DNA of 62,972 nucleotides. Origin: Candidatus Aenigmatarchaeota archaeon (GTDB lineage Archaea > Aenigmatarchaeota > Aenigmatarchaeia > CG10238-14 > SpSt-28). The stretch lies in contig JAWAZZ010000003.1 in assembly GCA_038997305.1 (NCBI GenBank), positions 1 through 62,972 on the forward strand, written 5' to 3'. Made by a program: the position numbers and the translations under genes. This document shows positions 22,601-62,018 of this stretch, in pieces. Numbering within the stretch: the first letter of the stretch is position 1; the number at the start of each line of letters is the position of its first letter. Below the pieces are notes generated by a model, which saw only the letters and a list, made by a program, of their open reading frames with translations, had not been told where the DNA came from and did not search any database.

Positions 22601-25600
22601 ATTTTGAAGTTAATGAAACTATAAACATTAGTGCAAAGGTTTATGATAACATAGCATTAGATAAAGTTTGGATTAATATTAGTTATCCAGATAATACCTC
22701 TGAAATAAAACTTATGAATTATTATAATGGTTTGTTCGTTGCAAACTTATCTTCTTCAAAAGAAGGTAATATATCTGTAAGTATTTGTGCAAACGATACA
22801 AAAGGATTAACCAATTGCTTAGAATATAAAGTAAGGGCATATTCGAAAACATTATTAGATATTATTTCAGAAATTATAACTTTCGAAAATGTTACCTTAG
22901 AAAATTCACAAACTAAGAATGTAAAAGTTAATTTAACTAACTTAGGTTTTGCAAGAGCAAGAAATATAACGATTGTCGATTCCCTAAACGATAGCTTTAT
23001 TATATCTTCAATAAACATTTCTCAATTATTAGCTCAGCAAACTTTAGCATTACAACTCAACATAACAGCACTTAATGGTACTTTCGCAAATAATTATACG
23101 ACAAATGTAACAATATATTGGAGAAATTTAGATGGTAGTATAGCTAACAAAACTTCTGAAATAAAAATAGTTATACTACCAATTCATTCTTTGAAAATAT
23201 TAAACAGAACAGAAATAATAAGAAACGGAGAAGTAAAAGATGTAAATATAACAATAATTGCAAACGGTAACTTAAATGAAACTAACATAACATTTACATG
23301 TATTGAAAATTGTGAAACATTTGGAATTAATATTACAAAATTCATAGACAAAATTGCATTAGGAGAGACTAAAGATATCAATGTTACTGTTAAAGTTCCT
23401 ACAGATTTGCCTACTGGAGAATATTTAGTTAAATTTGTCGCATTTAACGAATTTATATATTCAGAAGGATTTTTGAAAATATTAGTTCCTGTTAACATAT
23501 CTTGGGAGCAAACTCCGAACTATTTAGAATATGAAGTTGTACAAAATGATTACCTAGAAAGCAAAATAACATTAACTAACAAAGGAAATATTAGACTGTT
23601 GCTAAACCTATCTTCAGAAATAATTAATGGAACTAGATTCGCATTTTTCGATAACTTTGAAAATTCATCAAACATAACGTTAAAGATTGGAGAAAGCAAA
23701 GACATTAAAATATTGATTAAAGCACCTGTAGTATATAATTACTCTATTTTTGAAAACAGAATTGTTTCTAAAAACTATACAGCAGAATCTGGATTACAAA
23801 CAAAAGAAACAAGAATAATATTGAAGATTCATCCGTTCTTCGTAAAAATACTAGAACCTACTGAAAATAATCCATTAAAGAATGTAATAAGCGGAGATAC
23901 CATCTATGCAAAAGTCAATGTAAGCTATGGAAACGATATATTAAGCTCTAATGTAAGCTTTAGAGTTTATCTTGCTAACGAAACCTTTAAATATGAAATT
24001 GAAAACTTTATTGCGCAATTCTTACCAACTGAAAGATATTGGTTAATAACGTTTATTGCTCCAAACCTAACAGAATCGATTGCATACGATTTAATAATAA
24101 ATACAACTTACTTAACCAAGAATATTTCTAAGCTAGCAATAGAACCGAAAGCAATAATTTATAAAGATAATATTCCACCAAGCATTGAAGTATTCATTCC
24201 ACCAAAAGTTAGAGTTAATACGACTACAACAATATTAGTGAACGTTACTGATTTGGGAGGAGTAGAAAATGCTAGCACAATAATAGTTAAACCAGATGGA
24301 AACTTAAGCTATTATAATTTAACATTTGTAAGAAGAATAGGTAGTACATACATATATAAATTAGATTTTAACGAAACCCAACAATTAGGAACTTACGTGA
24401 TTAATGTAATTGCTTACGATAAAAGCGGAAATAAAGCAGAAAAAAGTTCAAAATTCGATGTTAGACCATTAATTTACTTTAGTGGAATTTCTTATGACTT
24501 AGAGAAAGTTGAATTTACCCCACTAAATGTTACTTTTGAACTATATCCATCACAAAGCTTACAATTAGCTTATGCAATAGTGCCAGATGAAGATGGATAT
24601 TATAACGAAACTATTGAAAGTATGTACTACGATATAGTTTATAAATTCTTTAACGAAAGCTTGACAATATATAATGTTGGTTTGTTTGAAGATATTTTCA
24701 ATCCTATAGTATTGGGAATTCCAAGAAGCATTATATTACCAAAAGAAGCTATAAAAGGTTACTATATAGAATCTATATTTAAAGCATCCTCAACGCTAGC
24801 TTTTGATATAAGTAATGTAGATACAAAAACGTATAATATTAACTTACTAGGAATATATCATTGTGCAAATTGGACAAGATATATTGGTTGCAATTCAACT
24901 TGGATAAGATTAAATAGCATAGTAAGTGCTTCAAGTCTAAAGGTTTATGCTATTAATTTATCAGAAATTAGAGGTGCATATATATTAGCTCAGTATGTTT
25001 GTGGAAATAATGTTTGTGAAGATAGATTTGGAGAAAGTAATGCAGTCTGTCCAATAGATTGTCCAATAGCACCTTCTGCTGGAGCACCAGCTGCACCAGG
25101 AATACCTGCAGCACCTCCAATAGGTGGTGCGCCTATTGGTGTTCCAGGTGGAATAGGTGCAGGCGGAGGTGCGCCTACAATAACTTTACCACCATATGAA
25201 GTCTTTACCAAAGAAATTTCTGTAACATTAAAACCAAAAGAACATACAATAGTAAGCATTGATATAGGAAATAATAGAAATAGAGATATTAAAGTTAGAT
25301 TTAAAGCAGAAGGTTTGATTTGGGAGTTTGTACAGTTAGAAGCTAATGAAATAGACATAAAAGCAAGTCAAAGAGGAACAGTAAAAATGAAAGTATTTGC
25401 ACCAGAAGGTAAAATGCCCGGAATATATACTGGAGATTTAGTAGTATACATAGAAAATGAAACATATAGAATCCCCGTAACAATTAAAATAGAATTACCT
25501 CCAGAGCCGTTGCTAGACGTAATAATAAATGTACTAAAGAAAACCATAGAACCAAATGAAACATTAAGAGTCTTTGTAAGAGTTGTTAACATGGGTCAGA

Positions 25601-27048
25601 CAGAAAAAGTTGAAGATATTGTATTAACATATGTAATAAAAGATTTAGAAACAGGAAAACTATACAATGTTTATAAAGAAACTGTTGCTGTGGAAACAGT
25701 ATTATCATTTACGAGAGAAATTAAATTACCAGAAGGAATTCTACCTGATAGAAAGTATTTAATAGAAGTTAATGCAAGCTATTGGTATGGAAGAAAGTAT
25801 GCATATGCAGCAGATACATTTGAAGTAATTTCGTTACCATTACCAGTTAAAATATTTAGGTCTATACTCTTAAATCCAATAACATATTTAGTTGCTTTCG
25901 GAATTGCTCCTTCTGCATGGCTGGCTCAAAAAGCATGGACAGCATACAAACTCAAAAAATTGAAAGAGAAAAGATATGCGTTACCAATAGATTTTGATAA
26001 ATTACCAAAACCTGGACCTTATAGTATAGAAGTTGGAAAAATTGCAGAAACTGATGTAAAAGCATATTTCGATACCAGACAACTAATAATGCATACAATA
26101 GCTGCTGGAGGTACGGGTAGCGGAAAGACAGTAAGTGCTATGGTTGTAGCAGAAGAATTATTAAAGAGAAATATACCAGTAATAGTTTTTGATCCAACAG
26201 CACAATGGACTGGATTTATTAAACCAAACAAAGATCCTACAATGCTTCCGTTGTATTCTAAATTCGGATTAAAACCAGAAGATGCTAGAGGATTTAAAAC
26301 AAATATTATTGTAGTTGAAGATCCAGATATGCCATTAGACTTAAAGAAATATATGAATCCTGGAGAAATTACAGTATTTGTTCTTAACAAATTAAAACCA
26401 GAAGAATTAGATAAATTCATAAGAAGAAGTATTGATGCTGTATTTGAAATGAGACCACCAGAATCTAAAGAACTTAAATTATTGTTAGTTTACGATGAAA
26501 TACATAGAACATTACCAAAATATGGAGGTAAGGGTGGATATATAGCATTAGAAAGAGGTGCTAGAGAATTCAGAAAGTGGGGTATTGGATTATTCTTAAT
26601 ATCACAAGTACTTTTAGACTTTAAGGGAGCTATTAGAGCTAATATAGCTACTGAAATTCAATTAAGAACTAAGTATGAAGGTGATATTAATAGAGTTAAA
26701 CAGAAATATGGTAGCGAATACGCAGCCAAAGTTACTAAACTTACAGTAGGTACTGGAATTGTTCAAAACCCAGAATATAATAATGGTAAACCATGGATTG
26801 TATCATTTAGACCTCTATTACACTCTACATTTGCTTTATCAAAAGAAGAATTAGAAACATACATGAAATTAAGGAAAAAACTAGAAGAATTTGAAAAAGA
26901 AGTAGAGGCATTAAAAGCTAAAGGAGTAGACACCTTCGATATTGAAAATGAAATAAAGTTAGCATGGGATAGGTTAAAACAAGGTATGTTCAGAATGGTT
27001 GAAACATACATAGAAAGTATTGAAACAAACTTGAAACGATATAAATAA
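1..27048 (+). CDS. Giant modular cell-surface protein, 5'-truncated by the window edge (at least 9,015 codons here), ending in a TM helix plus a cytoplasmic HerA/FtsK-type (DUF87-like) P-loop ATPase domain
   Basis: Frame +1 is open from nt 1 (EKTFVADSDKINVYVKY...), so the TTG at 205 in the ORF track is only the first start-like codon, not a credible start. There is no stop until TAA 27046-27048, although stops are frequent in the other frames of this AT-rich DNA. The translation is a chain of beta-sandwich-type modules dense in N-x-S/T sequons, followed by a P/A/G linker, a hydrophobic helix and a Walker A/B domain. Confidence 0.9.
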   Translation, partial: EKTFVADSDKINVYVKYRIGNESFEESKSFELKQRFLDFNLSFSNNKLLIFGFSECYKILNLEIYKDSLLLENRSFEANNSFSLEYEINSSGKYVVSINGISKALDINLEQNVSKNESYLVLYLNKNNFTSNETIQIFGEVVFNGLRINDSISLNVLFNDSLVYNFSVNAFNGSFSYSFSSNFSSEGFYVLKAIYKNLENFTTFYFKSSSFENIINKSFENITSNLTSEEITFSLKSLKKHYKIGEKAVFEIDSKGKLPKKLFAYLIDPEGKQINVTDKIVYRDGKYFVELDTGRSFRPGMYKLKVVGVGDKGKGKGAFGVLGSEEISQETEFALGLVVVNTPKSIYLPGENVTIIVGVLDIYGGRVTDADVNLTITTPSKKIISATYNYATNSGEIINKGDGTYEYYFIPTEIGRYNISVYARSTSSFVNATFESFFEVRNFVEFDIERIGPTVSYLHGGEMSIRIIPKIDAGTLIISEYLPKDWNVSTDNGIVLEKEDSKIIVWHVKSEKDKPIILNYTFDPPDISPMLGLLGPLEIKFKGNEFRELKEWSVAVDTVYWFYVEWYIRERYSGKAIDELTLCRGMDYNFTILLLELAFDTDLLDTATYNGKLQILPEGAASYVDLPAYGWDYFDGLGNVRGVPGNDIANALGCANGVDDNCYFHTRGIRISPTAQLGRYKLKYTISGLSGYFQEGTNIINVRVIDCKDVNLIRRIKVYGPSGKWGYVIRGHLATIAVPLANYNATTAISGNVSVKILDDKGNELNWFFWDNKTKNFVIPPSPNAPYSYSETILTFRFEVPDNAIDIPYAAEVEIRTNSTINSYISYYEPFELQLSDDNSKFPVIIFTSPPRAGTADSAASEIYRFAVCNYGDYNITGATINVYPVVKGTTSPSVIESINLPSPTTITAETITWTNVNISTSNCSIAALRVVGPEDAGIEGAYVIEVIYYDQNIGSTISLSKYDSTSIAGGSATSDTSGSPNFRFNITYLPSSASIAVNYMLHDTGDSVGNVYRLLLQIPPGFNLTYLSRAPDIGYPIGSIYEGYIISWTTTISTTSGDTVTTIPVSDMRFTTGIIGDFTPGGKVFYQHLVGHGGARLAKWYTYQETPLILLGPWLKTVRYYNTTPIDDQIGFPTFFACGNFTTKLQVFNKGNVPAYNFNITEIKENIIKTHPGDLQFYGFVPNPSYYIQSQLINWDSTISFLATGKDNAKNFTYSIFVPYQTNGTFKFYARPTNRTLTFYDEDYIISVACGASLSVSDLTTKKGEITNPTIYAGDIFNISATIYNDGPGNASNVIVEINYTNTTPIKGLENLVIRNITYHISNITYLGTIGPKQSKIAHIDYTYIVNTSNVGPGTIRFCIIANATENSTKVYNCKDVTLNAPPALIELENPIIISEETKTSSGSWGFDFIFNISVRVRNSDNNVNVCAYFSKTGSEPWKLIGCNVYPAPGTNIGNWMNFSFRFDPSCEDIGNPVFVKFNATNNAGTTNSTQNIPFTITKDRIIFENIIGNSTETRRGKIPTLLALRVRDANGTLIPNLPITFYVTLDGNVYDQGYTVYTNSSGYANYNFLASCSPKYQVGYQKWKAVLTNNQCYADNSTENYYNLSVLVTGDILLTLVRPDGSSNYTQEDTITFLGYTNDDCGDALTANVKFYANQSLTSFECSNVIQVGSNAYTCDWHTDITTPMGWYNVTMVASRDYHYTNITANAKYPGLFYLKPIYKLENPQAYPLQEGWGYKNWNFTVIASSGDSVNAYDVNIYLGDLWPPAKPCDNCVNATPKTCFNCYKQVVTFLRNFTANEIGTWYYRFSLGPTSTTQVTYVIVEKDDVNISYVSGNNSVVIKDTQPALLSVRVYDLDAQTYNLNPPALVTFKIYDSRYPNGYKIIGSNYTNSSGYANFLLNITDCSWLEGTQKWSAEIDDSDNAYKKAYTPENYTITLYLPGCQPQVDIYSIDLPKEAFQYRNFTIITYVTSWVSAANDVYINISLPNGWLVDQQTKYLGTVNVGEFREVYWNIYPTSYGEGYVTFYVNSSNAGSKVKSSDKVIVYKFGNSQQNSLLTLNPKDSKILNFDCEAGIYRLANLTINISNGNSIIKIESFNGSNWIIVSNNLFVNTNKYFIPILTKQISSDSNGKCKIRITNIGNYSITINEAYLTSYYNESLRIEGIKVLVNNVEVESLDSSERYFNVSVRIGNSLDYDKQVNLTLKILKDSTEIYSNNKSFLISANSFAYINFTNISTNSWNEGIYKIVAILQSSDYSETLTREIVFDSIKIDVDYSKYQCNSTTEKIKVTIYQPLEDIIFYNVSLIVPSGWNYLPNNVAITSKGKGYYVAEFNLTAFSDIEQNYQITIKVDYNYSTGKTKTQNIILTVSPNIPILEVIREIPSLVSSSIVFKPRITIHNKGCGVANNVIVKEYLSAGWIGANPSIAKNEYSEDPEISNKDVDLIYSETDLINNILTWKLSEIKPNQYAVLTYQIKAPATLNTEGNFLYNVSWNDKYFVQEKNPTKVYTYAYSQESHLEFDLESLQDPNYPWSEVRSLQVNVPYNLTLKVTNIGDIPTYSDWIVKLYIPNDCDVINVENGIWNVSERKIVWNLQNIATYQTAYLNFTLKCYKEKQFVLIAEGIRDTRTQITFENSTSIYCESSSKPAYCYYKSNFMLTKPNNARYEKLSNLTLKIYNVFSANNLTVGNSYVKVFDDSSNEYIIWQDFSFNNKESNITQQFLIPEEIQNNFVNSLKTFEISSYTDATKNTYTKISILNISYTWNLGRLFNESQNLFIKSKVYTYAPLLANATLYINGSNKTVGGWGEKFEFSVKVRDRFGRDVIVRLYHRKVGDVWQLVGEQTCYSCYNWKEFNFTYDYDYTDISNWEFKFVGINSDGTSELYGYVYTVEKDDLQLTPILPQWNSSVYRAYGYNFTVYAFDIDNQTIPYVLEDNKPFIALSQYGNNQTYKIYTISPAINSSGYIILYVSNAEFCNPSNNFYLGQNYWYAGITASSYYKDTNTRIPPYNALPYVLIGSLYNSIIYPINVNFSFELDTITLRGIVKDDCGNVRADDDMYVYFNLTNGNFNYQCIATRVGNEFQCTFNPRALNAPLGWYNITMYSSKPLHTEGISIARNAFFLAIIPDIINISIKPFGGPWGLSPFNFSAYIIDEDKNLVNITHYLRKLPENYQTAYLDSCINCNYYLTSFLRNFTCDYLTIDVGNWTYKIEVKDEAGFSNQSQEITFEIQKEPITINLLEGNNTLFNRTNVPNSKPYNLSVYILDTILNKNVTIIPIVNLRLEGPTNSLTSMQIDEANSKYYYEFYPDCSYNVGEYKWYVYVTNDQCYANARSQNFTLKVFGQLYVNIISPTDWQMVSEGQQVSIRATVSDDCNVAQSDANVYFILRNERTLQEFRCPESGYATFDGTSYVCNFNTISKPGGNYTIIAYASKNYYWNSSSIKQNAFFLVTPVRILNVYMNYEQDGGWGEIHSFTATIDHYADVIVCLLEKPLDATNYQITECKYLSNPSGGKNITFSKRYTCSDYVRSQFWNFKINASEPGIPSSYSESAEYSHLLQKNDLQLTIFYNDTEAKRYGNSRARLIIYAYDLDQKQAAYVSTYSSPLIKFRVYNGSYFVDVGSNSTNSSGYSTFFFKPDCSFNVGPKEWYAYTEADACYKNVISNRDNITIVGLLNPRLVYPINEQFIRYAELYINLSSIVNDECNLVSFNNANVTFKAKSVAFGSEYICSEVNYANGYYNCTLNATSIEEGWYDVNVSASNVKYYDDYYYIQNNSFKIIHQLVPPVLSGEYAYAEKDGGFGERWYFRVNVSDLNGDDVNVYLWVSKDGINWQLVNQTICYNCGKERTIELSYKGFDCSWIGTAYFKFNASDAYNSTDRPAFTFNLAKDDVRIEYYSGNESYLIRGIGGILQARIFDIDKGDYVDSQVALYVTNDKVNYQLVAINNSQNSIATLFFNPDCNFATGQQYWKIGSYNDACYKDANSSEFVLYVVGHIDANITYPNGNKFLRGSNITLNISVFDECSQNVKLENAKINITMRSNRDGSIRYCYDVIELGNGEYSCTFNSSGFTPNYYNITLNISRSYYLDKTKSFANVFWIETNPILFNLRTIPSVLGWGETLTVKFNFTDEDLDTHTVRVYLIKTDYSRIRTRDVTGVTGINTEYSATFAFSQQDIGSWYVIANVSDDFGKAEVSTNITIEKDDTRIDYVSGNGTVVNRISNSTTLVLRAIDVDNPSNVIVNQLAKFWVTRDSSDYIEIGSVYTQSDGTLSITFDPDCRFSVGIKKWKGGLLENLYWKASNSSDYYLTIVSNLTGNILQPNGNVILRGTDGITIRATVSDDCGYVSDANVEFIVGTTNINVTCDNVIKDGLGNYTCYLSPDILLALPFGWQNVTMIAKREFYENEFVLTKQNAFYLADKPRLEELNLYSTNYRWGSTFTFSAKLYDLDEDNKTVYLWISKDKINWKLINYTTIIGRTSPQGDLITFVYIPTCNDVGSWYFKFNVTDTSGYSDEKEGWQFDILKRPATIIAVSGLNEIIPREGYTTRTLSIRAIDALNSNNISNAKVTFVLINKTNQETYYTTYTNVNGLAFYAFDPDCSFNASQNYWYVKLEDNQCYEDSVSPLFTYYIYGKLYNNLLYPPFGSVFPSRTQFNISSIITSDCADEGNISGANLEIKVIGQEEYSCSNIYEYNGVYNCTFDTSNKKAGTYNIVLNSTKQYYFGDYTTYSNWFSIVNSIPTYSNLNVTPSKAPWTSVFNFSVYVSDPDGDTVRCALEINKGGSFVEVAVTQIQGSGLCSFLISNFDCLDIGTKEFRFSLYDYYNNVVYTETKTFEITKSYVSINLVAGNGTNVRRNIDSTVFRVNVKDLVRNSLVGLNNLPEAKIKFNITNDGYNFVTLDEVITISGYAETTFYPDCSYSATTQYWKAYVSEDDSCYYYNETTPNFTVNVIGSLLPTVIQPTNLAKYRRGENVTIRVNVTDECTNLVDVDYINITPISKNTLQIFSCDVQRESLGYYNCSFNTSNVPAGSYDIRVNATKQYHVSSVYTESDTFFIETNPQLFNPNVDIYQDGWGKTRTFRVDAYDEDRDALYVCAYYRPVNTTEWKLIACRTKPSGIALATLSFTKSFSCDDLFGNDTYLYEFFFNVTDDDGNTANSEIRNFVLEKDDISISIAEGSNAIYNRSDIYKIPLTIYIRDLDANSHANRQVNATLYVTTIPGSTSYVIDNTYLNRFPTLGNITFYFPNLPKCTYEVGPQKWYVSVNSSCYKPANSPIGQVYVTTNPLNVSLLRPKGEIYPQLSNIPTVINVRDDCKFVSGATLSVEAIDIESNKYSCSSIVDYNNGTYSCYFSGLTTLGNYTIAIKADKNYYPQSPEYYFPNSFFIVSKPTVYSHQAYASKTYSSTGGWGDTWFFEIETYDEDQNFYNFEVLNVSLYIDFGNGYKYYGSQICSAPDCSSLKKFTFTTTFDCSKIGNANYKFVLTDVFNNTVEVTGTITIRQDSIQITPIIYPSSVEREGSTSYLFRSIVEDLDRGNLVDNMNATIMITRNYNNFDYIVPLKSINGYLDYYLDPDCSFLAGTQYFKLVSNDTCYEYFETSPINFDVIGSLKNYIVYPSQNSNILIEFGKIQNITINVKDECGVNQENVNIITEAIWPNSFIENIPTYEIGNGYYNATWNLTYKIGGYYSFRITSSKQFYLSNTSLFSNWYYLNNTPPEILDIYVTPSSGPWGGVYSFIANISDLQRDNVVCKLYVYTGKGYWIYKGQQIIPNGNGICNINVNDFDCLDINTSFPIRFKFELNDGTNIINTSEIYAPSLTKNYATVYLVTGNNSFVNRAYSNSTLLSLRIYDSVRNVFVTQGVNGFVRVTKDGSNYGEFIYNQTNSSGYLNIYFDPSGDYEVGLQKWYGGVINDNCYFDTNSSEYYLTVLGEINVNTFEIDKQNYPYYLKPIENVTIVLTLVDDRYSYVSGANVSIKLINENGNAYDCKVIEIGSGTYRCTINTSLLSARWYNVSIYATKDYHIPLAANYSNVFFVETKPKVYNVSVISEQNSSIGGWGENWRFIVNFEDEDLDTNEIHLLIKPENSQTWYDVNYTTISGKNYSIIELAYKDPGLLQSYLGKWQAQFYSQDSRGYIEYSEIVNFTVEKDDVRIELALGNNSTVWRNSTQAVTLKVRIYDLDQKTYISSPTAKVYFFVTKDGNTFDSGKISYTDDSGYALIDFDPDCNYKTGRQIWVARIIDDNYYKPANSSNFTVNIYSTLIPNISYPDGHAFLVGELIPINITLTDECEFVNNASMSITIRFLATTYTCSPVNNIDNGIYNCIWDSSGKAYGSYSITATASKAYYASNSTTKSPAFYLASQPQLANPSIDKYFGGWGETYKFRVELTDLDRNLNNVSLWKSYDNQTWIYVASKSVTPTYTNYPVTFDVSFDCNDYLNGPKVYFKFTSRDQFGYYAESSIVNVTFEQNDVSISILTYNSSVRRFGNNYSYFLLQVYDADRKVYPNSTQVSLFVTENGNLYSVTLTNTTFIGNVSFYYDPTCNSLVGTQKWYARITDVCYKNINTTERPLTVIGQIYVNILSPTLNQKLYRNFTYYFNSSTKDECNIIVNDANVSWYFGNSRIGNQYNITYTIPNNYKLGLENVKANATRTYYDMNENITQIYVYGFADLREIYPINFSEILAGMPTEIACRVVDRNLNVPIEGYTVYFYKNNTLLGSALTNSSGYASIIWSTSSELAGYYEIKCNISSDNIKYYDPYINEISSIIRMRRPLIINEISVNPQEIYRNDTFTPNTATIRVRVYDSIVSATSNAIVHFYNETHYIGNCTPDNLGYCSITYNIPDNLDVGPKPIYINATPTIIGRENSATNITYVIAKGKLYIRIEQPINGSIFAKSSSVNVRVFATSENREDIPNKYPTSKVEITNSSSILGYANPSGEANIYSGTITLLDQKPGWLNLTARLSINYYDKAEDSILILVTGLAGVEFVTPKDNQEITYPTIIYPTCLVKDLDSNSGIENYPVEFYYRTENSDWYFVSTQITNSSGYANITFIPPTKGIFYFRCVIYNNQTLVYSAINNESIVKVIFKDLTPPTILQTSINPTYDIEANKDYVNITALVVDNIGISEVWTNITLPNGSSVRVNMNLISGNLTYGYYSATYIPPIGGEYNVTIFAKDLPPEANVNSSFAGSFFVFGKTYLDLTVKPTEVVASGITIYEGYPFNINITINNLGPTTAYELNVSIYDDSSNRIEYSTNSISLDKLLRYVNVTNLILSRIKEATPAQAINIFINLTWRNPDNTYNSTLARIFVLVAENPKLEVKPSYYESVVEHDSIKNIGSLNITNIGNVPVSEIKLSLDLNTPFFMRCINCTITLNPSYQGFLAMGQSFNSSITVKIPAGQDPGSYWTRVLISSKEAATIYSILNVSVPINNSWIINKEISGIILAPIGTRKDIDKVEFTNIGNVNVSISIFVSGNGAELIRVENFSSFSFVLPKQKSRNITFSYDIPIDKPEGLYDVRVVMRSLDGSPNLREFTFMLNVTDIPPIIENVTFSKTDFEVNETINISAKVYDNIALDKVWINISYPDNTSEIKLMNYYNGLFVANLSSSKEGNISVSICANDTKGLTNCLEYKVRAYSKTLLDIISEIITFENVTLENSQTKNVKVNLTNLGFARARNITIVDSLNDSFIISSINISQLLAQQTLALQLNITALNGTFANNYTTNVTIYWRNLDGSIANKTSEIKIVILPIHSLKILNRTEIIRNGEVKDVNITIIANGNLNETNITFTCIENCETFGINITKFIDKIALGETKDINVTVKVPTDLPTGEYLVKFVAFNEFIYSEGFLKILVPVNISWEQTPNYLEYEVVQNDYLESKITLTNKGNIRLLLNLSSEIINGTRFAFFDNFENSSNITLKIGESKDIKILIKAPVVYNYSIFENRIVSKNYTAESGLQTKETRIILKIHPFFVKILEPTENNPLKNVISGDTIYAKVNVSYGNDILSSNVSFRVYLANETFKYEIENFIAQFLPTERYWLITFIAPNLTESIAYDLIINTTYLTKNISKLAIEPKAIIYKDNIPPSIEVFIPPKVRVNTTTTILVNVTDLGGVENASTIIVKPDGNLSYYNLTFVRRIGSTYIYKLDFNETQQLGTYVINVIAYDKSGNKAEKSSKFDVRPLIYFSGISYDLEKVEFTPLNVTFELYPSQSLQLAYAIVPDEDGYYNETIESMYYDIVYKFFNESLTIYNVGLFEDIFNPIVLGIPRSIILPKEAIKGYYIESIFKASSTLAFDISNVDTKTYNINLLGIYHCANWTRYIGCNSTWIRLNSIVSASSLKVYAINLSEIRGAYILAQYVCGNNVCEDRFGESNAVCPIDCPIAPSAGAPAAPGIPAAPPIGGAPIGVPGGIGAGGGAPTITLPPYEVFTKEISVTLKPKEHTIVSIDIGNNRNRDIKVRFKAEGLIWEFVQLEANEIDIKASQRGTVKMKVFAPEGKMPGIYTGDLVVYIENETYRIPVTIKIELPPEPLLDVIINVLKKTIEPNETLRVFVRVVNMGQTEKVEDIVLTYVIKDLETGKLYNVYKETVAVETVLSFTREIKLPEGILPDRKYLIEVNASYWYGRKYAYAADTFEVISLPLPVKIFRSILLNPITYLVAFGIAPSAWLAQKAWTAYKLKKLKEKRYALPIDFDKLPKPGPYSIEVGKIAETDVKAYFDTRQLIMHTIAAGGTGSGKTVSAMVVAEELLKRNIPVIVFDPTAQWTGFIKPNKDPTMLPLYSKFGLKPEDARGFKTNIIVVEDPDMPLDLKKYMNPGEITVFVLNKLKPEELDKFIRRSIDAVFEMRPPESKELKLLLVYDEIHRTLPKYGGKGGYIALERGAREFRKWGIGLFLISQVLLDFKGAIRANIATEIQLRTKYEGDINRVKQKYGSEYAAKVTKLTVGTGIVQNPEYNNGKPWIVSFRPLLHSTFALSKEELETYMKLRKKLEEFEKEVEALKAKGVDTFDIENEIKLAWDRLKQGMFRMVETYIESIETNLKRYK
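1650..4150 (+). other. Non-repetitive, G/T/P/Y/W-richer region of the giant protein (candidate distal 'head'), ending in DUF11/CARDB-like modules
   Basis: The sequence WFYVEWYIRERYSGKAIDELTLCRGMDY...GCANGVDDNCYFHTRG...GHGGARLAKWYTYQETPLILLGPWLK has no counterpart elsewhere in the window. It has visibly fewer K/E/N residues and locally higher GC than the repeat arrays. Confidence 0.4.
4150..5830 (+). repeat. Two outlying copies of the super-repeat (copy 1 has modules A-B-C, copy 2 has A-B only)
   Basis: The G-W-G anchor tryptophans lie at nt 4216 (SGSWGFDF) and 5203 (QEGWGYKNW), 987 nt apart. Each is followed by the (E)KD(D/R) module and a TNSSGYAN motif; the identical 24-nt string actaattcttctggatatgcaaac occurs at ~4678 and ~5668. 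Confidence 0.7.
8341..19975 (+). repeat. 12 tandem copies of a ~315-333-aa three-module super-repeat (A: GGWGE/acidic D-x-D module; B: EKDD...TNSSGYA...DPDC module; C: DDCG...Y-x-C...Y-x-C module)
   Basis: Anchor W codons lie at 8407, 9406, 10387, 11380 (F replaces W), 12325, 13273, 14227, 15184, 16183, 17146, 18124 and 19081, giving spacings of 945-999 nt. Motifs recur in register: GGWGE.., EKDDV.I.Y..GN, TNSSGY..F.PDC.F..G.Q.W, CY, V.G.L...I..P, DDC/DEC, Y.C...G.Y.C.F, G.Y.I...A.K.YY. Copies are strongly diverged at the nucleotide level. Confidence 0.85.
19975..21200 (+). other. Several Big_1/carboxypeptidase-regulatory-like beta-sandwich modules
   Basis: Examples are IACRVVDRNLNVPIEGYTVYFYKNNTLLGSALTNSSGYASIIWSTSSELAGYYEIKC and CLVKDLDSNSGIENYPVEFYYRTENSDWYFVSTQITNSSGYANITFIPPTKGIFYFRC. 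Pattern recognition only. Confidence 0.5.
21200..24990 (+). other. Three higher-order units, each an Ig-like 'PP-x-I' module followed by CARDB/NEW3-like modules; the last unit ends in a double-Cys module
   Basis: The Ig-like modules start at ~21208 (LTPPTILQTSINP...), ~22558 (DIPPIIENVTFSK...) and ~24166 (DNIPPSIEVFIPP...). Between them are CARDB-type segments such as YEGYPFNINITINNLGPTTAYELNVSIYD, GSLNITNIGNVPVSEIKL, PAGQDPGSYWTRVLISS, PIDKPEGLYDVRVVMRS and PTDLPTGEYLVKFVAFN. Confidence 0.55.
25000..25194 (+). other. Cys motif (CGNNVCEDRFGESNAVCPIDCP) followed by a P/A/G-rich low-complexity linker
   Basis: Read directly: C codons at 25000, 25015, 25048 and 25060, then PIAPSAGAPAAPGIPAAPPIGGAPIGVPGGIGAGGGAPTITLPP (25063-25194). 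This is the most GC-rich stretch of the gene. Confidence 0.85.
25861..25926 (+). other. Predicted single transmembrane helix of the giant protein
   Basis: SILLNPITYLVAFGIAPSAWLA is followed by the basic stretch QKAWTAYKLKKLKEKRY (positive-inside). It is the only hydrophobic stretch between the last CARDB-like modules and the ATPase domain, and is only moderately hydrophobic. Confidence 0.6.
25975..27045 (+). other. HerA/FtsK-superfamily (DUF87-like) P-loop ATPase domain plus a C-terminal coiled-coil tail
   Basis: Walker A is AAGGTGSGKT (26101-26130), preceded by H and followed by VIVFDPTAQW. Walker B is LLLVYDEIH (26479-26505). EFRKWGIGLFLISQVLLDF...ATEIQLRTKYEGD matches the HerA-type 'EGRK.G..l.lisQrP....i.lr..n..D' pattern. 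The tail SKEELETYMKLRKKLEEFEKEVEALKAKG is heptad-like. Confidence 0.8.
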
Positions 27049-27050
27049 TT

Positions 27051-28265
27051 ATGGAAGAGGATTTATTAAAACAAAAACAAGAAATTGAGAATTTTCTGAA
27101 AGAAATAGAGAATAGTTATAAAAAAGGAGAAATTAGCGAAGAAGCTTATAAAGAAATTGTAGAACAAAATAAAAAGAAGTTAGAAGAAATAGAAAGTAAA
27201 CTGAAAAGCAACAAAGAAGTTTCTGAAAAGAAAAAGAAGAGTAGAATAGAAGAAATATTAGAAAAGGTTTTTAAAGTAGAAAAAGAATTCTCTGAAAAAG
27301 AAGTCGGAAAGATTAAAGAAGATCTATCAAAAATAAATATTGAATTGGAAAAAACAAAAACATTAATAGAATCTCTAAAAGAAATGAAAGCTGCCAGCGA
27401 TGAAAAAATTGCAAGAGTTATAGAAAATATTGGGGAGTTAAGAAGTATGATTGTTGGAAGAGAAAGCAAAGTTAGAGAATTAGAAGCAGATGTTGAAAAA
27501 ATGAAAGACATTTTGAAAGAAATAAGTCCCGAAAAATATTTAAAAGAGCTGAATAAATTAAATAAAGAGATTGAATTGTTTAGAGTAAAAGTAGAAAAAG
27601 TTGAATATCTAGCTAATGAAAGTGCAAAGGCTGTAAAAGAATTACAGACGCAATTAAAATTAATAGGTAGTATTGAAAATTTAGCAAAGTTAAACAAAGA
27701 CTTGCAAAGCAAGTTAAAAGAAATTCAGCTAATTTCTCAAAAAATTGAAAACACAGCAAACAAAATTGATTCAATTTTCATTGAAATAAATCAAAAAATG
27801 AGAGATTTAGAAATTATTAAAGATAAAGTTGATGCTCTCTTTCAAAATTTTAATGAAATAAGTAGAAATTTAAGCGATTTATCTAATAGAATTGAAAACT
27901 TAGCTAGTAAAGATGAATTGAATAGTTTAAGAGATTATGTTGGTAATTTAGAAAAACAAATTGTGGAATTAGAGAAAAAGAAAGAAGAAAAGATTGAAGA
28001 GGAAACTAAAAGCATTGAAGAGGAAATAGAGGGTGTAAAAATGCTTTTAGAAGCTTTAGAAGATATGAAGAAAGAAGGTAAAATTAGCGAAGAAGAATAT
28101 GCTTCCCTTAAAAAAATTCATTTAGAAAGATTAAAAGCTTTGGAAGAAAAGAAAGGTAATATAGTCAAAGAACAAAAAGAAGAAAGAATAAATAAAAAAC
28201 TAAAAGAATTGTATGAGAAAGGAGTTATAAGTAAAGAATTGTATGAGAAATTAACTAAGAAATGA
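27051..28265 (+). CDS. Coiled-coil protein (404 aa) with SHOCT-like G-x-IS-x-E-x-Y motifs at both ends
   Basis: The ATG lies 2 nt after the giant-gene stop. The protein is K/E/L/I heptad-rich throughout, with no TM and no P-loop. Motifs are KKGEISEEAYKEI (N-terminal), KEGKISEEEYASLKK and EKGVISKELYEKL (C-terminal). Its stop overlaps the next ATG (ATGA at 28262-28265). Confidence 0.8.
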   Translation: MEEDLLKQKQEIENFLKEIENSYKKGEISEEAYKEIVEQNKKKLEEIESKLKSNKEVSEKKKKSRIEEILEKVFKVEKEFSEKEVGKIKEDLSKINIELEKTKTLIESLKEMKAASDEKIARVIENIGELRSMIVGRESKVRELEADVEKMKDILKEISPEKYLKELNKLNKEIELFRVKVEKVEYLANESAKAVKELQTQLKLIGSIENLAKLNKDLQSKLKEIQLISQKIENTANKIDSIFIEINQKMRDLEIIKDKVDALFQNFNEISRNLSDLSNRIENLASKDELNSLRDYVGNLEKQIVELEKKKEEKIEEETKSIEEEIEGVKMLLEALEDMKKEGKISEEEYASLKKIHLERLKALEEKKGNIVKEQKEERINKKLKELYEKGVISKELYEKLTKK

Positions 28266-31200
28266 ACTTTAAAATATTGAGCCTAGTTTTTGTTTTTGGT
28301 ATATTTTTAGCATTAATATTTTTTAATCTAAAAAATTTTACTGGATTTTTTGTTTATAGATATGTAGAAGACAAATGGTGGAACTCTTCTTACCATTTTA
28401 GAATTAAAATTGAAATAGATAGCAGCGATTATAATAGAACAAATTGGCCAGTAGAAATTTTTCTGAATTTAACTCAAAAACTACAAGAAGTAAATATTAG
28501 CGGAAAAATAGATTTAAACTCACTAAGATTAATAGAATATGATTTTAACGGTAATCCTTTAAGAATAGTTCCTTTTCAATTCGACGTAAATGAAAACTTT
28601 GATGCATATAATAATGCTGTAGGTGAATTAGTATTTATTCTTAATGGAACAAATAATGCAAAAAGAAAATTTTATTTATATTTTGATATCGAAGAAAACG
28701 GAAAAAAAGAAAGTATTAACTTCTTAACAAATCTTTCATATTCAATAAATGGAAATTTTATCTACATTAATACCTCTGGTTTCGCTTTTACATTATATAA
28801 TTCTTCGAATAAATTTGGTTTTATAAACATTCAAAGATTAACAGATGGTTTATATGTTTTTTATCCTTCAGATGAACCTTTTGAATATACTATAACATAT
28901 AATCAATCGTCAATTTTTTACTACATTCCTTATGAAATACAAATAATCGAAGGACCTATAAGATTAGGAGTAAAAGTTAAGATGAGAGAGTTTGATGGAA
29001 TTAGATTTACCGGTATTAACTATACAAAAATATATTATTTCTATAATTACGCCGGACCAGGAAGTATAGACTCGATTTCTTCCAATCTACTAAAAATTAA
29101 ACAAAAATTTGAAGGTAATGCAATAAGATTTTCAAACTTTTCTTTTGGATTTAATGTTACAAATCTTTATGGAGATCCTGCAGAAACGATAGGTTTTGAA
29201 GTCAATACACAAAATCCATATTCTTATGCATATGCCTTTAGAGGTTCTTTTAGTGTTCAAATAATTAACCTAAATTATTCAAATATAGAATTTTTCGCAA
29301 ATAGTGATTTAAATAGTAATGTTGGAATATACTTTAACGAGAATAATATTAACAACGCTGAACAAACTTCATCTATTTTTGTAGGTATATTATCTACACC
29401 AGAAGAGCAAAAATATCCTCTCTATATTTTAAACAGCTTTACAAATCCTATAAACATTACAATCTTTAACACAGAAAATAGAGAAGTGTTAGTAGGAGTA
29501 AAAACAGATTTTCCAGTTTATAATAGAGGTGAAAAAGTTTTTATAACTGCATTTAATATATCAGATCCATACGATTTAATTTCCAATGTTACTGCAATAA
29601 TAGATAGAGGAACTTTAGATGCTAGTGATGATATGTTAGTTATTTTGTATGATGATGGATTGCATAACGATAATCTATCGAAAGATAAGATTTTTGCAAA
29701 CAGTTTTTCGATAAACGCTACTGATAACATCGGTAAATGGAAAATAACTATCTACGTATACGATAAGTATGGTACATTGCTAATAACTAATCAAACAGAG
29801 TTCAATGTTACAAATATTCTTAACGTCGAAACAAACATTATTAATAAGCATGGATATGTTAATAGAATTATTAACGCAACACTTACAGTAAAAAACTTTA
29901 GAAATGACACATATATTACGAATGCCTCTATTATTTGTTACGATGATGGGATTGCAAAACAAACAAATGTAACTAATTTTAATAACGGAAGTTATTTGAT
30001 TTCAATTCAAGCATCTTCTTTGGCTGGATATCATATTTTAAATTGTAGTGCTACTTATTTTAATAATACAGGATTTGACGAAGATATTTATGATTCTACA
30101 GATGTAGTTACCTATTTAGATTTAAACATTACTCCAAACTATTATTTTGCTAAAAATATAACTTTTTATAATAATGAAAGTTTTACCTTTATAGTAAATG
30201 TTTCTAACTTACATATTGGTTATGCCTATGATGTAAACATAACTTTTGAAAAGCCAATAGAAATAGAAATAATACCAAATAAAGAATATTGCAATACTAT
30301 ATATATAGATGGTTTTTGCACAAAACAATTTACTGCAACAATAAAAAACGCTAGTCTGCCTAAAATTTATAATGTTAAAGTAAATGTTAGTTGGAGAAAT
30401 TATGATGGAACTCTAAATTCCACTAGCAAAAATCTAACTATTGAAGTAAAGAGTAATAAGATATTAGATATTCAACCAAATAGCATTTTTAGTATAAATC
30501 CTCCAGGCAAAAATACTTTTGTTGGTAAAATAGTTTTAAATTCAAGCGGAAATGATTATGTTTATAACATTTCGTTTTATTCAAATTTGACGGATTTTAA
30601 TTTCATATTTTATCCAAATATTTCTCAAATAGATCCTGGAAAAGTAATTGAAGTAAATGTTAATGTTAGCATTCCTTTAGGTTATCCTGCTGGAACTTAT
30701 TATGGAATAATAAATGTTAGTAGTGAGATTGGATATAAAGAAATTCCAATAACATTAAAGGTTTCTGGAACTTATACAACTTTAGAAGTTTTTCCAAACT
30801 ATTATTTTGCTAAAAATATAACCTTTTATAATAATGAAAGTTTTGAAGTTTTGATAAATGCAACTAATATTGGAAGTGTCGAAGCTTTCTTCTCTTTTAT
30901 TCAGATTCATTTACCAAGCAATTTTGTAGCAAATCAAACATTTAAAGATTGTGGAAATTTAACAGCAAAAAATTCTTGTATATTATCTGCTAAGATAACT
31001 ATTAAAAATGCTACTTTGCCTGGAGTTTATAGAATATTTTATTCTTTTAACTGGACTGACATTGGTATAGGTAATAATAGCATTGTTAATGAAACAATTG
31101 TTGAAATAAAAAGTAATAAAATATTAAGCATTGAGCCAAATAATATAAGTGCTATAGTAGAGCACAATAAAACATTTTTTGTTGGTAAAATAGTTTTAAA

Positions 31201-34874: not shown

Positions 34875-35093
34875 ATGGAGGTTTATATTATAGGTTTAAC
34901 ATTAATATTAGTCATAGTTTTTGGAATATTTTTACTCTTAAAGAGAAGAGAAGAAAGAAATTTTTTGGAAGCTCTGGAAGAAATTGAGAGAAGCCTAATA
35001 TCTATGCAAAATAGCATTAGAAGTGCTCTTATGGTTTTGAAAGAAGATGAAAAAGTAAAGAGAAAGAAACATGCCAGAAAAAGGAGCGTTTGA
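34875..35093 (+). CDS. Small single-pass membrane protein (72 aa) with a charged C-terminal tail
   Basis: I prefer the ATG at 34875 (MEVYIIGLTLILVIVFGIFLLLKRREE...) to the TTG at 34824 in the ORF track. The 3' end overlaps the next gene by 23 nt. Confidence 0.55.
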   Translation: MEVYIIGLTLILVIVFGIFLLLKRREERNFLEALEEIERSLISMQNSIRSALMVLKEDEKVKRKKHARKRSV

Positions 35094-38150: not shown

Positions 38151-38280
38151 AATGAAGGTATTTAAAAATATAAAAGCAAAAATTAACAAAAACACTTTAT
38201 GTAATATTACCTTGGTACAATTTTTGAAGGTAAGTTGCACTTTTTTTGCACGCAATCAAAATCATACGGTTCTTCTCGAT

Positions 38281-38292
38281 GGGAAGGGGGGG
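38281..38292 (+). promoter_or_regulatory. Strong Shine-Dalgarno-like G-run (GGGAAGGGGGGG) 5 nt upstream of ATG 38298
   Basis: This is the only purine/G-rich ribosome-binding-like element I saw in front of any gene in the window. It lies inside a 147-nt intergenic gap. Confidence 0.5.
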
Positions 38293-38297
38293 TAAAC

Positions 38298-38906: not shown

Positions 38907-38908
38907 TT

Positions 38909-46966: not shown

Positions 46967-46968
46967 AT

Positions 46969-48146: not shown

Positions 48147-48187
48147 AGCACATTAATCCATTATAAAGTTAATTAAAAAACATTTTT

Positions 48188-53720: not shown

Positions 53721-53741
53721 AAATTTCTTCTTTTCGCAAAA

Positions 53742-57638: not shown

Positions 57639-57666
57639 AAAATAGATAATAGCAAATTACATTATT

Positions 57667-58871: not shown

Positions 58872-58873
58872 TT

Positions 58874-62016: not shown

Positions 62017-62018
62017 TT

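What the first reader, a model, noticed from the sequence alone, without database searches (positions are those of the whole stretch)
25861..27048. The giant extracellular protein is covalently fused, through one TM helix, to a cytoplasmic HerA/FtsK-type pumping ATPase
After ~8,500 residues of extracellular-type modules the ORF continues through one hydrophobic helix (SILLNPITYLVAFGIAPSAWLA plus KLKKLKEKR) into a domain with HerA-type motifs. These are Walker A AAGGTGSGKT, VIVFDPTAQW, Walker B LLLVYDEIH and EFRKWGIGLFLISQ...IQLRTKYEGD, the signature order of HerA/DUF87-family ATPases. A coiled-coil tail follows. HerA/FtsK/VirB4-class ATPases are hexameric translocases, as in archaeal CedB DNA import, conjugation and FtsK. 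An adhesin-sized ectodomain hard-wired to such a motor suggests a hexameric surface fibre bundle coupled to DNA, protein or other substrate translocation, or ATP-driven assembly or retraction of the fibre. I do not recognise this architecture as a described system; that is my inference, made without a database search.
Basis: partly seen in the sequence, partly recalled or inferred. Interest (0 to 1): 0.92.

Follow-up and report, generated by a model that had tools for sequence, protein, structure and literature searches.

The report
Giant archaeal surface protein with ATPase tail
A tiny symbiotic (DPANN) archaeon encodes a surface fibre protein of more than 9,000 residues that crosses the membrane once and ends in a HerA-type motor ATPase inside the cell; the fusion is real and conserved in many species, but the design is already published as the "SPEARE" giant proteins, and its function is still untested.

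Summary
One open frame runs from window base 1 to the stop at 27046-27048. It encodes at least 8,550 residues of glycosylation-site-rich beta-sandwich modules, one hydrophobic helix (25852-25926), a K/R-rich stretch, a HerA-clade P-loop ATPase and a helical tail.

The fusion is not an assembly error. Two other assemblies are 100% identical across the junction. In about 70 of 80 related species genomes the frame upstream of the ATPase stays open to the locus or contig edge.

The claim that the design is undescribed is wrong. This is the "SPEARE" type of giant protein:
- Hamm 2019 noted relatives in Aenigmarchaeota.
- Reva 2023 described Ig-like repeats, then a TM helix, then a VirB4/TraG-like ATPase, then a coiled coil.
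- The window's ATPase is 47% identical to a protein in Hamm's own SPEARE list.

The ATPase fits HerA best (Pfam DUF87 above threshold; top fold match HerA 4d2i). It lacks HerA's N-terminal barrel and a NurA partner.

Possibly new: a conserved operon of a coiled-coil protein, a second surface protein of about 1,900 aa and a MinD-like ATPase. Function remains inferred.

Verdict: new member of a known kind, moderate interest.
The parts
1..25851 (+). Ectodomain-coding part of the giant gene. It is open at the window's 5' edge; the first in-frame start codon is at 205.
   Evidence: There is no in-frame stop from base 1. Weak Ig-like, MG2, NPCBM_assoc, Big and Filamin Pfam hits. 330 N-x-S/T sequons against 132 +/- 10 in shuffles.
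4000..19833 (+). At least 14 tandem copies of a super-repeat of about 323 aa, 21-32% identical to the reference copy.
   Evidence: Self-BLAST offsets are multiples of about 323 aa; alignment A3. The AF2 model (pLDDT 88) is all-beta, read as about three beta-sandwich domains. Foldseek hits are RbmA, complement MG domains and mastigoneme.
25537..25827 (+). Membrane-proximal beta-sandwich domain just before the TM helix.
   Evidence: Weak Pfam PF19271 hit. The motifs G.Y...Y...F.V are conserved in the homologue alignment A1.
25852..25926 (+). Single transmembrane (stop-transfer) helix, IFRSILLNPITYLVAFGIAPSAWLA.
   Evidence: Most hydrophobic 19-mer of the ORF. AF2 predicts a helix. The homologous segment has a median KD of 2.0 in 64 loci.
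25927..25974 (+). Positively charged juxtamembrane stretch, QKAWTAYKLKKLKEKR (cytoplasmic side).
   Evidence: 6 K/R in the 15 residues after the helix against 2 before it. Family medians are 5 against 1.
25975..26835 (+). HerA-clade P-loop ATPase core: Walker A at 26101-26130, Walker B at 26479-26505, the REFRKWG...SQ motif at 26566-26607.
   Evidence: Pfam DUF87 above its cut-off. PDB HerA sequence hits. Foldseek top match is HerA 4d2i at 7e-14. Walker A G/K and Walker B D-E are invariant in 30 homologues.
26836..27048 (+). C-terminal helical, coiled-coil-like tail and stop codon.
   Evidence: AF2 helices at residues 336-402 of the 403-residue model. The tail aligns to the end of nanohaloarchaeal relatives.
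27051..28265 (+). Conserved cytoplasmic coiled-coil partner (404 aa). It starts 2 nt after the giant gene's stop and carries three G-x-I-S-x-x-x-Y-x-x-L (SHOCT-like) motifs.
   Evidence: A homologue lies directly downstream in 78 of 82 related loci. No known family matches. Motifs.
28262..33997 (+). Second large surface protein (1,911 aa): N-terminal signal-like segment, MG2/NPCBM_assoc modules, a C-terminal TM helix and a short cytoplasmic tail with the same motif.
   Evidence: Its start overlaps the preceding stop. TM segments; Pfam hits. A homologue lies downstream in 52 loci. The tail motif is visible in all 34 complete homologous tails.
34030..34797 (+). Archaeal MinD-like ATPase.
   Evidence: NCBIfam minD_arch at E 2.7e-47, 161 bits, below the 201.75 cut-off. 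Present downstream in 29 loci, a count limited by the 10-kb flank.
38235..38906 (+). Small protein of 223 aa that sits next to MinD in relatives.
   Evidence: Found next to MinD in 11 loci. No Pfam hit.

Best explanation
Identity. This is the C-terminal end of a SPEARE-type giant surface protein of a DPANN archaeon. The closest genome is an Aenigmatarchaeota MAG.

Shown here:
- One ORF encodes an ectodomain of more than 8,550 residues. It is built of sequon-rich tandem beta-sandwich modules and is probably N-glycosylated.
- The ectodomain is followed by one stop-transfer TM helix, a positively charged cytoplasmic stretch, a HerA-clade ATPase core of about 290 residues with intact Walker A and B motifs, and a helical tail.
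- Complete relatives begin with a signal-peptide-like segment, so the topology is N-out and C-in.
- The fused design is the norm in a large archaeal family, mostly DPANN. Ectodomain length varies from about 130 to more than 8,500 residues, while the TM helix and ATPase stay constant.
- The gene heads a conserved operon with a coiled-coil protein, a second single-pass surface protein of about 1,900 aa and, often, a MinD-like ATPase.

Inferred mechanism:
- Like its HerA, FtsK, CedB/CedD and coupling-protein relatives, the ATPase forms a ring under the membrane. This would bundle several fibres (six if hexameric) at a site placed by the coiled-coil and MinD partners.
- ATP hydrolysis then moves a polymer at the contact with the host cell.

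My estimates:
- The protein is a fibre/adhesin with an active ring ATPase: about 0.8.
- The ATPase translocates a substrate at all: about 0.5.
- The substrate is nucleic acid rather than protein: about 0.3 against 0.15.
For: ORF continuity and motifs.

Independent assemblies are identical across the junction.

The frame upstream of the ATPase is open to the locus or contig limit in about 70 of 80 species loci. A relative with frameshifts (L001) is still collinear across all pieces.

ATPase class:
- Pfam DUF87 at 39.7 bits, above the 23.2 cut-off.
- PDB HerA sequence hits at 1e-6 to 1e-4.
- AF2 model pLDDT 91.5; Foldseek HerA 4d2i at 7e-14, FtsK 2ius and TcpA at 7e-10.
- Walker A G/K, Walker B D-E and the R-E-F-R-K-W-G...S-Q motif are invariant in 30 homologues.

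Topology:
- Sequon density 3.9 per 100 aa in the ectodomain against 0 in the cytoplasmic part.
- Family medians are 5.3 against 0, with 5 K/R after the helix and 1 before it.
- N-terminal hydrophobic segments occur in 73 of the 112 representative relatives that start with Met, including proteins of up to 7,665 aa.

Family size:
- At least 575 species genomes.
- 369 representative clusters at E<=1e-30; of the 136 newly listed representatives, 68 are >=2,000 aa.

Link to SPEARE:
- 47% identity over 367 aa, E 3e-121, to AQV86_02330 of nanohaloarchaeon SG9, which is in Hamm's Table S3.
- 45% and 51% identity to other nanohaloarchaeal proteins.
- Published descriptions read.

Operon conservation.
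Against: - No experiment or multimer model supports ring formation or any substrate.
- One TM helix per subunit is a poor channel on its own. No polytopic VirB6/CedA-like partner was found in the conserved neighbourhood.
- The N-terminal HAS-barrel of true HerA is absent, and no NurA-like gene is nearby.
- The TM segment of this particular protein is only marginally hydrophobic (KD 1.58).
- I could not compare directly with the type SPEARE protein NAR1_1133 or with SVXNc_0300.
- Hamm's proteomics found the ecto and cytoplasmic parts in different size fractions. The mature protein may therefore be cleaved, which would weaken the idea of a hard-wired motor.
Confidence: 0.7

Rival explanations
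1. Type IV secretion-like 'straw' (Reva et al. 2023). The cytoplasmic domain is a VirB4/TraG-type secretion ATPase that pushes protein effectors out through, or along, the giant fibre into the host cell.
For: The same superfamily gives weak T4SS-DNA_transf and TrwB_AAD_bind Pfam hits. Foldseek matches the coupling protein TcpA at 7e-10. The published proposal was read.
Against: HerA matches are stronger than VirB4 or coupling-protein matches by Pfam, NCBIfam, PDB sequence and fold. T4SS Pfam scores fall below their cut-offs. No VirB4 N-terminal domain and no VirB2/VirB6-like genes appeared in the Pfam scans of window ORFs. The second ATPase that Reva cited as support is absent from this window and from all 82 related loci. 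Tandem beta-sandwich fibres have no lumen.
Confidence: 0.15
2. Non-translocating anchor or force module. The ATPase ring serves to oligomerise, tension, remodel or signal through the fibres, and to dock them to a cytoplasmic coiled-coil and MinD scaffold. No polymer passes through it.
For: The partners conserved with the gene are coiled-coil, single-pass and MinD-like proteins, not channel proteins. A SHOCT-like motif is shared by the coiled-coil protein and the tail of the 1,911-aa protein. There is one TM helix per subunit. The ATPase ends in a conserved helical tail suited to protein contacts.
Against: The closest structurally characterised relatives found here (HerA, FtsK, coupling protein TcpA) are DNA translocases or couple to DNA transfer. 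The catalytic and SQ motifs are strictly conserved, as in translocases.
Confidence: 0.3
3. Assembly or annotation artefact. The giant adhesin and a small TM-ATPase are separate genes joined by a missed stop or frameshift.
For: Small stand-alone versions exist, with a signal peptide, a 130-270 aa ectodomain, a TM helix and the ATPase. One relative, L001, is split by frame changes, and its ATPase was called as a 400-aa gene.
Against: Two other assemblies are 100% identical across the junction. The frame is open through the junction in about 70 of 80 species. L001 is collinear, and its open frame still extends about 65 residues upstream of the TM helix. Representatives of up to 7,665 aa carry the ATPase at the C-terminus.
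Confidence: 0.02
4. Restriction/nuclease reading of SPEARE (Hamm et al. 2019). The cytoplasmic domain is a type III restriction-like enzyme that degrades imported host DNA.
For: Some homologues carry weak precomputed ResIII (PF04851) helicase-type hits. The published proposal was read.
Against: No nuclease domain was detected. The whole cytoplasmic part is accounted for by the HerA-like core and the helical tail. Reva et al. reached the same conclusion.
Confidence: 0.03
5. HerA-based anti-virus defence system.
For: Weak PADLOC HerA and mad8 hits at 1e-12 to 1e-11. NCBIfam anti-phage HerA hits at about 2e-4.
Against: Scores are far below the family cut-offs. No SIR2, DUF4297 or nuclease partner is present. 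The domain is fused to a giant ectodomain, and the conserved partners are surface and scaffold proteins.
Confidence: 0.02

Closest known systems
SPEARE / giant membrane-anchored surface proteins of Nanohaloarchaeota (NAR1_1133; SG9 proteins; SVXNc_0300, 9,409 aa; BNXNv_0298, 8,880 aa). Sources: Hamm 2019 PMC6642349, Reva 2023 PMC10266531. Also reported in DPANN lineage EX4484-52 at 12,127 aa (PMC8470020).
   Same: The layout is the same: a giant ectodomain of Ig-like modules (the published proteins and complete relatives start with a Sec signal; the window's own N-terminus is missing), one TM helix near the C-terminus, a conserved cytoplasmic P-loop ATPase and a coiled-coil tip. NPCBM_assoc-type modules are present in both. 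The ATPase is 45-51% identical to nanohaloarchaeal members, including one in Hamm's SPEARE list.
   Different: The host lineage is Aenigmatarchaeota-like with about 28% GC. No laminin-G, protease or WD40 domain was detected in the part present in the window. The downstream gene is a coiled-coil protein, not a second ATPase paralogue. A conserved surface protein of about 1,900 aa and a MinD-like gene follow.
HerA (archaeal and bacterial HerA-NurA; defence-system HerA)
   Same: Best sequence and fold match. Shares the Walker A and B motifs and the ...GRK.G.GL...SQ motif. HerA is a ring-forming DNA translocase.
   Different: There is no HAS-barrel N-domain: only about 60 residues lie between the TM helix and the P-loop. 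No NurA, SIR2 or DUF4297 partner is present. The domain is membrane-anchored and fused to an ectodomain. NCBIfam HerA scores are 20-27 bits against cut-offs of 800-970.
CedB/CedD of the crenarchaeal Ced DNA-import system (PMC11868833)
   Same: These are HerA-clade ATPases tethered to the membrane by an N-terminal TM segment, acting in DNA uptake between contacting cells. CedD is the best NCBIfam hit (E 3e-11, over the region around the P-loop).
   Different: The score is 42.6 bits against a cut-off of 600. There is no VirB4-like N-terminal domain, no giant ectodomain in Ced proteins, and no CedA/A1/A2-like genes were seen nearby.
FtsK/SpoIIIE, type IV coupling proteins (TrwB/VirD4/TcpA) and type VII EssC/EccC
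   Same: N-terminal membrane anchor followed by a cytoplasmic ring ATPase of the same superfamily. Foldseek E 7e-10 to FtsK and TcpA.
   Different: Pfam scores are below the cut-offs. Those proteins have several TM helices and only small extracellular parts. No gamma domain and no T4SS or T7SS partners are present.

Membership tests
HerA-FtsK superfamily / Pfam DUF87 (PF01935) | Profile match above the curated cut-off | tested here: met
   39.7 bits against a 23.2 cut-off, E 7.4e-10. The match covers only profile positions 1-66 of 220.
HerA-FtsK superfamily / Pfam DUF87 (PF01935) | Intact Walker A (GxxGxGK[ST]) and Walker B (hhhhDE), conserved across relatives | tested here: met
   GGTGSGKT and LLLVYDE are present. 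G91, G94, G96, K97, D220 and E221 are invariant in 30 homologues.
HerA-FtsK superfamily / Pfam DUF87 (PF01935) | RecA-like fold closest to HerA or FtsK structures | tested here: met
   AF2 pLDDT 91.5. Foldseek: HerA 4d2i at 7e-14, FtsK 2ius at 7e-10.
HerA-FtsK superfamily / Pfam DUF87 (PF01935) | Hexameric ring with a trans-acting arginine finger | not testable with these tools
   Only monomer prediction was available. R243 and R246 in the REFRKWG motif are invariant, but their role is inferred.
Canonical HerA (HerA-NurA) | N-terminal HAS-barrel domain | tested here: not met
   Only about 60 residues lie between the TM helix and the P-loop. AF2 shows two short strands there.
Canonical HerA (HerA-NurA) | Adjacent NurA nuclease (with Mre11/Rad50) genes | tested here: not met
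   Pfam scans of window ORFs of >=150 aa found none. NCBIfam HerA equivalog scores are 23-27 bits against cut-offs of 800-970.
SPEARE-type giant proteins (Hamm 2019; Reva 2023) | Very long extracytoplasmic region of adhesion-type (Ig-like) modules | tested here: met
   Ectodomain of more than 8,550 aa. Ig-like, MG2 and NPCBM_assoc hits. The super-repeat is modelled as beta-sandwiches. Sequon excess.
SPEARE-type giant proteins (Hamm 2019; Reva 2023) | One TM helix near the C-terminus with the C-terminal region in the cytoplasm | tested here: met
   This rests on hydropathy, charge bias and sequon distribution; no dedicated topology predictor was available.
SPEARE-type giant proteins (Hamm 2019; Reva 2023) | Cytoplasmic P-loop domain homologous to that of published SPEARE proteins | tested here: met
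   47% identity over 367 aa, E 3e-121, to AQV86_02330 (SG9), listed in Hamm's Table S3. 45% to the Ca. Nanohalococcus occultus 623-aa protein. NAR1_1133 and SVXNc_0300 themselves could not be fetched.
SPEARE-type giant proteins (Hamm 2019; Reva 2023) | C-terminal coiled-coil tip | tested here: met
   AF2 helices at residues 336-402. The tail aligns to the end of nanohaloarchaeal relatives.
SPEARE-type giant proteins (Hamm 2019; Reva 2023) | At least one laminin-G domain; serine-protease region (Hamm's definition, disputed by Reva) | tested here: inconclusive
   No such Pfam hit at E<=1e-3 in the 8,947 aa present. The N-terminus lies outside the window.
VirB4 / type IV secretion | VirB4 N-terminal domain, T4SS profile matches above cut-off, and VirB2/VirB6-type neighbours | tested here: not met
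   T4SS-DNA_transf 17.4 bits (cut-off 20.1) and TrwB_AAD_bind 16.1 bits (cut-off 20.5). No CagE_TrbE_VirB hit. No such neighbours. No VirB4 structure in the top 50 fold hits.
Ced system (CedB/CedD) | Equivalog-level match to CedB or CedD | tested here: not met
   CedD 42.6 bits against 600; CedB 15 bits against 700.
FtsK/SpoIIIE | PF01580 match above the cut-off | tested here: not met
   16.9 bits against 24.

The most novel reading that the evidence does not exclude
The giant TM-HerA protein, the coiled-coil partner, the second surface protein of about 1,900 aa and the MinD-like ATPase may together form a widespread DPANN-specific cell-to-cell apparatus, distinct from T4SS and Ced. In this reading a HerA-clade ring, covalently tied to several fibres that would be hundreds of nanometres long if extended, moves host DNA or another polymer across the symbiont membrane at a contact site positioned by MinD. 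The operon and the shared SHOCT-like docking motif were not mentioned in the SPEARE papers I read or found.
Probability: 0.15. Interest if true: 0.8.

Novelty: new member of a known kind. Interest (0 to 1): 0.4.

Why it matters
DPANN archaea are tiny symbionts, and those cultivated so far must take lipids, nucleotides and other building blocks from a host cell. How material crosses between the two cells is an open question.

A surface fibre hard-wired to a motor ATPase is one of the few candidate machines, and it takes up several percent of these small genomes. This window adds nothing new in kind. The survey behind it does show three things:
- The design is shared by hundreds of archaeal species, mostly DPANN, not only by nanohaloarchaea.
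- The motor is HerA-like rather than VirB4-like.
- It travels with a fixed set of partner genes.

These points give concrete targets for experiments in the cultivated nanohaloarchaeal systems.

Tried and rejected
- The word-index protein searches never returned the giants themselves; the longest hit was about 1,090 aa. The length distribution had to come from the genome-contig scan and the HMMER representative search.
- L031, labelled Nanohalarchaeota, was used to reach true SPEARE proteins, but its nearest relatives are Aenigmarchaeota. The link was made instead through P0142, which led to P0170 and P0167.
- Two cluster look-ups to match the accessions in Hamm's Table S3 found none.
- Whole-protein self-BLAST showed no repeats because the off-diagonal HSPs were culled. 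Chunked BLAST revealed them.
Profile searches of that family against Pfam and the PDB gave only generic coiled-coil noise.
- The bacterial promoter and terminator scan was uninformative for an archaeon.
- My first regular expression for the SHOCT-like motif found nothing. A simpler one matched only 14 of 64 partner homologues, so conservation of the motif rests mainly on the alignment consensus and the listed tails.
- The defence-system reading was rejected.
- There are no tRNA genes in the window.

Full report
**What is there.** The window has about 28% GC. One reading frame is open from base 1 to the stop at 27046-27048. The ORF listing reports it from the first start codon at 205 (8,947 aa), but there is no in-frame stop upstream. 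The gene is therefore cut by the window edge, and the protein is longer than 9,000 residues.

- hydrophobic segment at 25852-25926
- K/R-rich stretch at 25927-25974
- Walker A at 26101-26130
- Walker B at 26479-26505
- the REFRKWG...SQ motif at 26566-26607
- a helical tail from about 26836

**Is the fusion real?** Yes, on four lines of evidence.
- Contigs assembled from other sequencing runs (SRR34265293, SRR17794511) are 100% identical to the window over 17051-29857 and 21462-28686, which span the junction.
- A scan of one genome per species found at least 575 genomes with a relative of the ATPase domain. In the best 80 loci (55-89% identity), the frame upstream of the ATPase is open to the 10-kb locus limit or the contig end in about 70.
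- One relative, L001, has about six frame changes, yet it is collinear with the window protein through all the pieces.
- An exhaustive HMMER search of 1.84 billion representative proteins gave 369 clusters at E<=1e-30. Of the 136 newly listed representatives, 116 are >=1,000 aa, 68 are >=2,000 aa and 18 are >=4,000 aa (maximum 7,665 aa). The ATPase usually sits at the extreme C-terminus.

Small complete versions also exist, with a signal peptide, a 130-270 aa ectodomain, a TM helix and the ATPase. The constant unit is the TM helix plus ATPase; the ectodomain is the variable part.

**Topology.**
- The hydrophobic segment is marginal in this protein (KD 1.58), but it is the top-scoring 19-mer of the whole ORF. 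AF2 models it as a helix.
- In 64 relatives the homologous segment has a median KD of 2.0. It is followed by a median of 5 K/R in 20 residues, against 1 before it.
- The ectodomain carries 330 N-x-S/T sequons against 132 +/- 10 in shuffles. The cytoplasmic part carries none. Family medians are 5.3 against 0 per 100 aa.
- Of the 112 representative relatives that start with Met, 73 have a signal-peptide-like hydrophobic N-terminus, including proteins of up to 7,665 aa.

Together these support a type I layout: the fibre outside, the ATPase inside. No dedicated topology predictor was available.

**Ectodomain.** Pfam gives only weak Ig-like hits: Filamin, Big_1, Big_7, DUF11, MG2, NPCBM_assoc and Invasin_D3. 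Residues ~1,270-6,540 are at least 14 tandem copies of a unit of about 323 aa, 21-32% identical to the reference copy. The AF2 model of one unit (pLDDT 88) is all-beta, which I read as about three beta-sandwich domains. Its Foldseek matches are RbmA, complement MG domains and mastigoneme arrays.

**The ATPase.**
- Pfam DUF87 ("HerA central domain") scores above its cut-off. HerA_C, FtsK_SpoIIIE, T4SS-DNA_transf and TrwB_AAD_bind score below theirs.
- NCBIfam gives partial, far sub-threshold matches to CedD, HerA and TraD.
- PDB sequence hits are all HerA.
- The AF2 model of the TM helix plus ATPase has pLDDT 91.5. Its best fold matches are Sulfolobus HerA 4d2i (7e-14), HerA-NurA and SIR2-HerA. 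FtsK and the coupling protein TcpA follow at 7e-10. No VirB4 structure is in the top 50.
- The catalytic residues are invariant in 30 homologues.

The domain is a minimal HerA. It has no HAS-barrel and no NurA neighbour. The label "VirB4/TraG-like" used in the literature refers to the same superfamily but fits less well.

**Already described.** A literature search found this exact architecture.
- Hamm et al. 2019 (PMC6642349) named nanohaloarchaeal "SPEARE" proteins of up to 8,553 aa. Most of their length is outside the cell, with a TM helix near the C-terminus and a conserved cytoplasmic region. They reported similar sequences in Woesearchaeota, Aenigmarchaeota, Micrarchaeota and Altiarchaeales.
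- Reva et al. 2023 (PMC10266531) re-analysed proteins of 9,409 and 8,880 aa. They described a Sec signal, about 75 Ig-like domains, a TM helix, a VirB4/TraG-like ATPase and a coiled-coil tip, and proposed a secretion "straw".
- A 12,127-aa example was reported in another DPANN lineage.

I tested the link directly. The window's ATPase is 47% identical over 367 residues (E 3e-121), including the tail, to AQV86_02330 of nanohaloarchaeon SG9. That protein is listed in Hamm's Table S3. It is 45% identical, over 401 aligned residues that start at the TM segment, to the 623-aa Ca. Nanohalococcus occultus protein, and 51% identical to a partial nanohaloarchaeal giant. The type proteins NAR1_1133 and SVXNc_0300 could not be fetched.

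**What may be new.** The gene heads a conserved operon.
- A 404-aa coiled-coil protein starts 2 nt after its stop. A homologue lies directly downstream in 78 of 82 loci.
- A 1,911-aa protein follows, overlapping by 4 nt. It has a signal-like N-terminus, MG2/NPCBM_assoc modules, a C-terminal TM helix and a tail of about 70 aa. It is present downstream in 52 loci.
- An archaeal MinD-like ATPase is present in 29 loci (a count limited by the 10-kb flank), and a 223-aa protein in 11.
- The coiled-coil protein matches no known family.
- It carries three G-x-I-S-x-x-x-Y-x-x-L (SHOCT-like) motifs. The same motif sits in the cytoplasmic tail of the 1,911-aa protein and is visible in all 34 complete homologous tails.
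- Unlike in nanohaloarchaea, no second ATPase paralogue lies downstream here or in any of the 82 loci.

None of the ten papers that mention SPEARE proteins was seen to describe this operon. I read four of them only at the places where the term occurs and one section of a fifth in full; the other five I saw only as titles and abstracts.

**Mechanism.** Identity, topology and ATPase class are shown. The rest is inferred. By analogy with HerA, FtsK, CedB/CedD and coupling proteins, the domain probably forms a ring under the membrane. This would cluster several fibres and use ATP.

My estimates:
- About even odds that it translocates a polymer, with nucleic acid somewhat more likely than protein.
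- About 0.3 that it is instead an oligomerising or force-generating anchor tied to the coiled-coil and MinD scaffold.

Three points weigh against a self-sufficient channel: there is one TM helix per subunit, no polytopic partner was found, and Hamm's proteomics hints that the ecto and cytoplasmic parts may be separated after synthesis. The restriction-enzyme reading and a defence-system reading are not supported.

**Verdict.** The finding is a new member of a known, little-studied kind. Interest is moderate (0.4), because the function is unknown and because the family's breadth and its partner genes give testable leads.

Noticed in passing
window 1-204: The giant gene's frame has no stop from the first base of the window. 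The gene is truncated by the window edge, and its N-terminus (signal peptide and any head domains) is missing.
   Followed up: partly
window 4000-19833: At least 14 tandem copies of a super-repeat of about 323 aa (all-beta, read as about three beta-sandwiches each) make up the middle of the ectodomain. Copies are only 21-32% identical to the reference copy, so the repeats are old.
   Followed up: yes
window 27051-28265 and 33670-33997: The 404-aa coiled-coil protein has three G-x-I-S-x-x-x-Y-x-x-L (SHOCT-like) motifs. The cytoplasmic tail of the 1,911-aa surface protein has one, and the tail motif is visible in all 34 complete homologous tails. This may be a docking or oligomerisation motif linking the two partners.
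   Followed up: partly
window 35071-41647: A run of K/E-rich coiled-coil genes (720, 306 and 912 aa) in a region of 22-23% GC with strong purine skew. Only the first has a homologue, and only in the closest relative, L003.
   Followed up: partly
window 34030-34797 (+) and 44326-45051 (-): Two MinD/ParA-type ATPases lie in one window. The first belongs to the conserved operon. The second sits between genes for proteins with N-terminal TM segments.
   Followed up: partly
window 46097-62756: A type IV filament (pilus or archaellum-like) locus. It has a T2SSE ATPase (55552-57027, -), two T2SSF platform proteins (53742-55555, -), a CBS+HTH regulator (57024-57638, -) and about ten ORFs with N-terminal hydrophobic segments that could be pilins. 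The whole window is devoted to cell-surface machinery.
   Followed up: partly
L001 6000-10000 (JGI 3300050342 contig Ga0527077_0545): A relative whose ATPase is 71% identical has about six frame changes in the last 5 kb of its giant gene, while remaining collinear. It is either a decaying pseudogene or carries indel errors from long-read assembly.
   Followed up: partly
L031 (JAFCBV010000041.1, labelled Candidatus Nanohalarchaeota): Its ATPase is closest to Aenigmarchaeota proteins (65-67% identity) and only 49% identical to a true nanohaloarchaeal protein. The bin label may be wrong, or the gene may have been transferred.
   Followed up: no
P0167 / P0170 (nanohaloarchaeal proteins of 623-625 aa): The 'second VirB4/TraG ATPase' downstream of nanohaloarchaeal giants appears to be a mini version of the same design. 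P0167 aligns with the window protein over 401 residues starting at the TM segment, after an N-terminal part of about 230 aa.
   Followed up: partly
tool behaviour: The word-index protein search never listed family members longer than about 1,090 aa, although giants of up to 7,665 aa are in the representative library. Searches for giant proteins with that tool under-report them.
   Followed up: no
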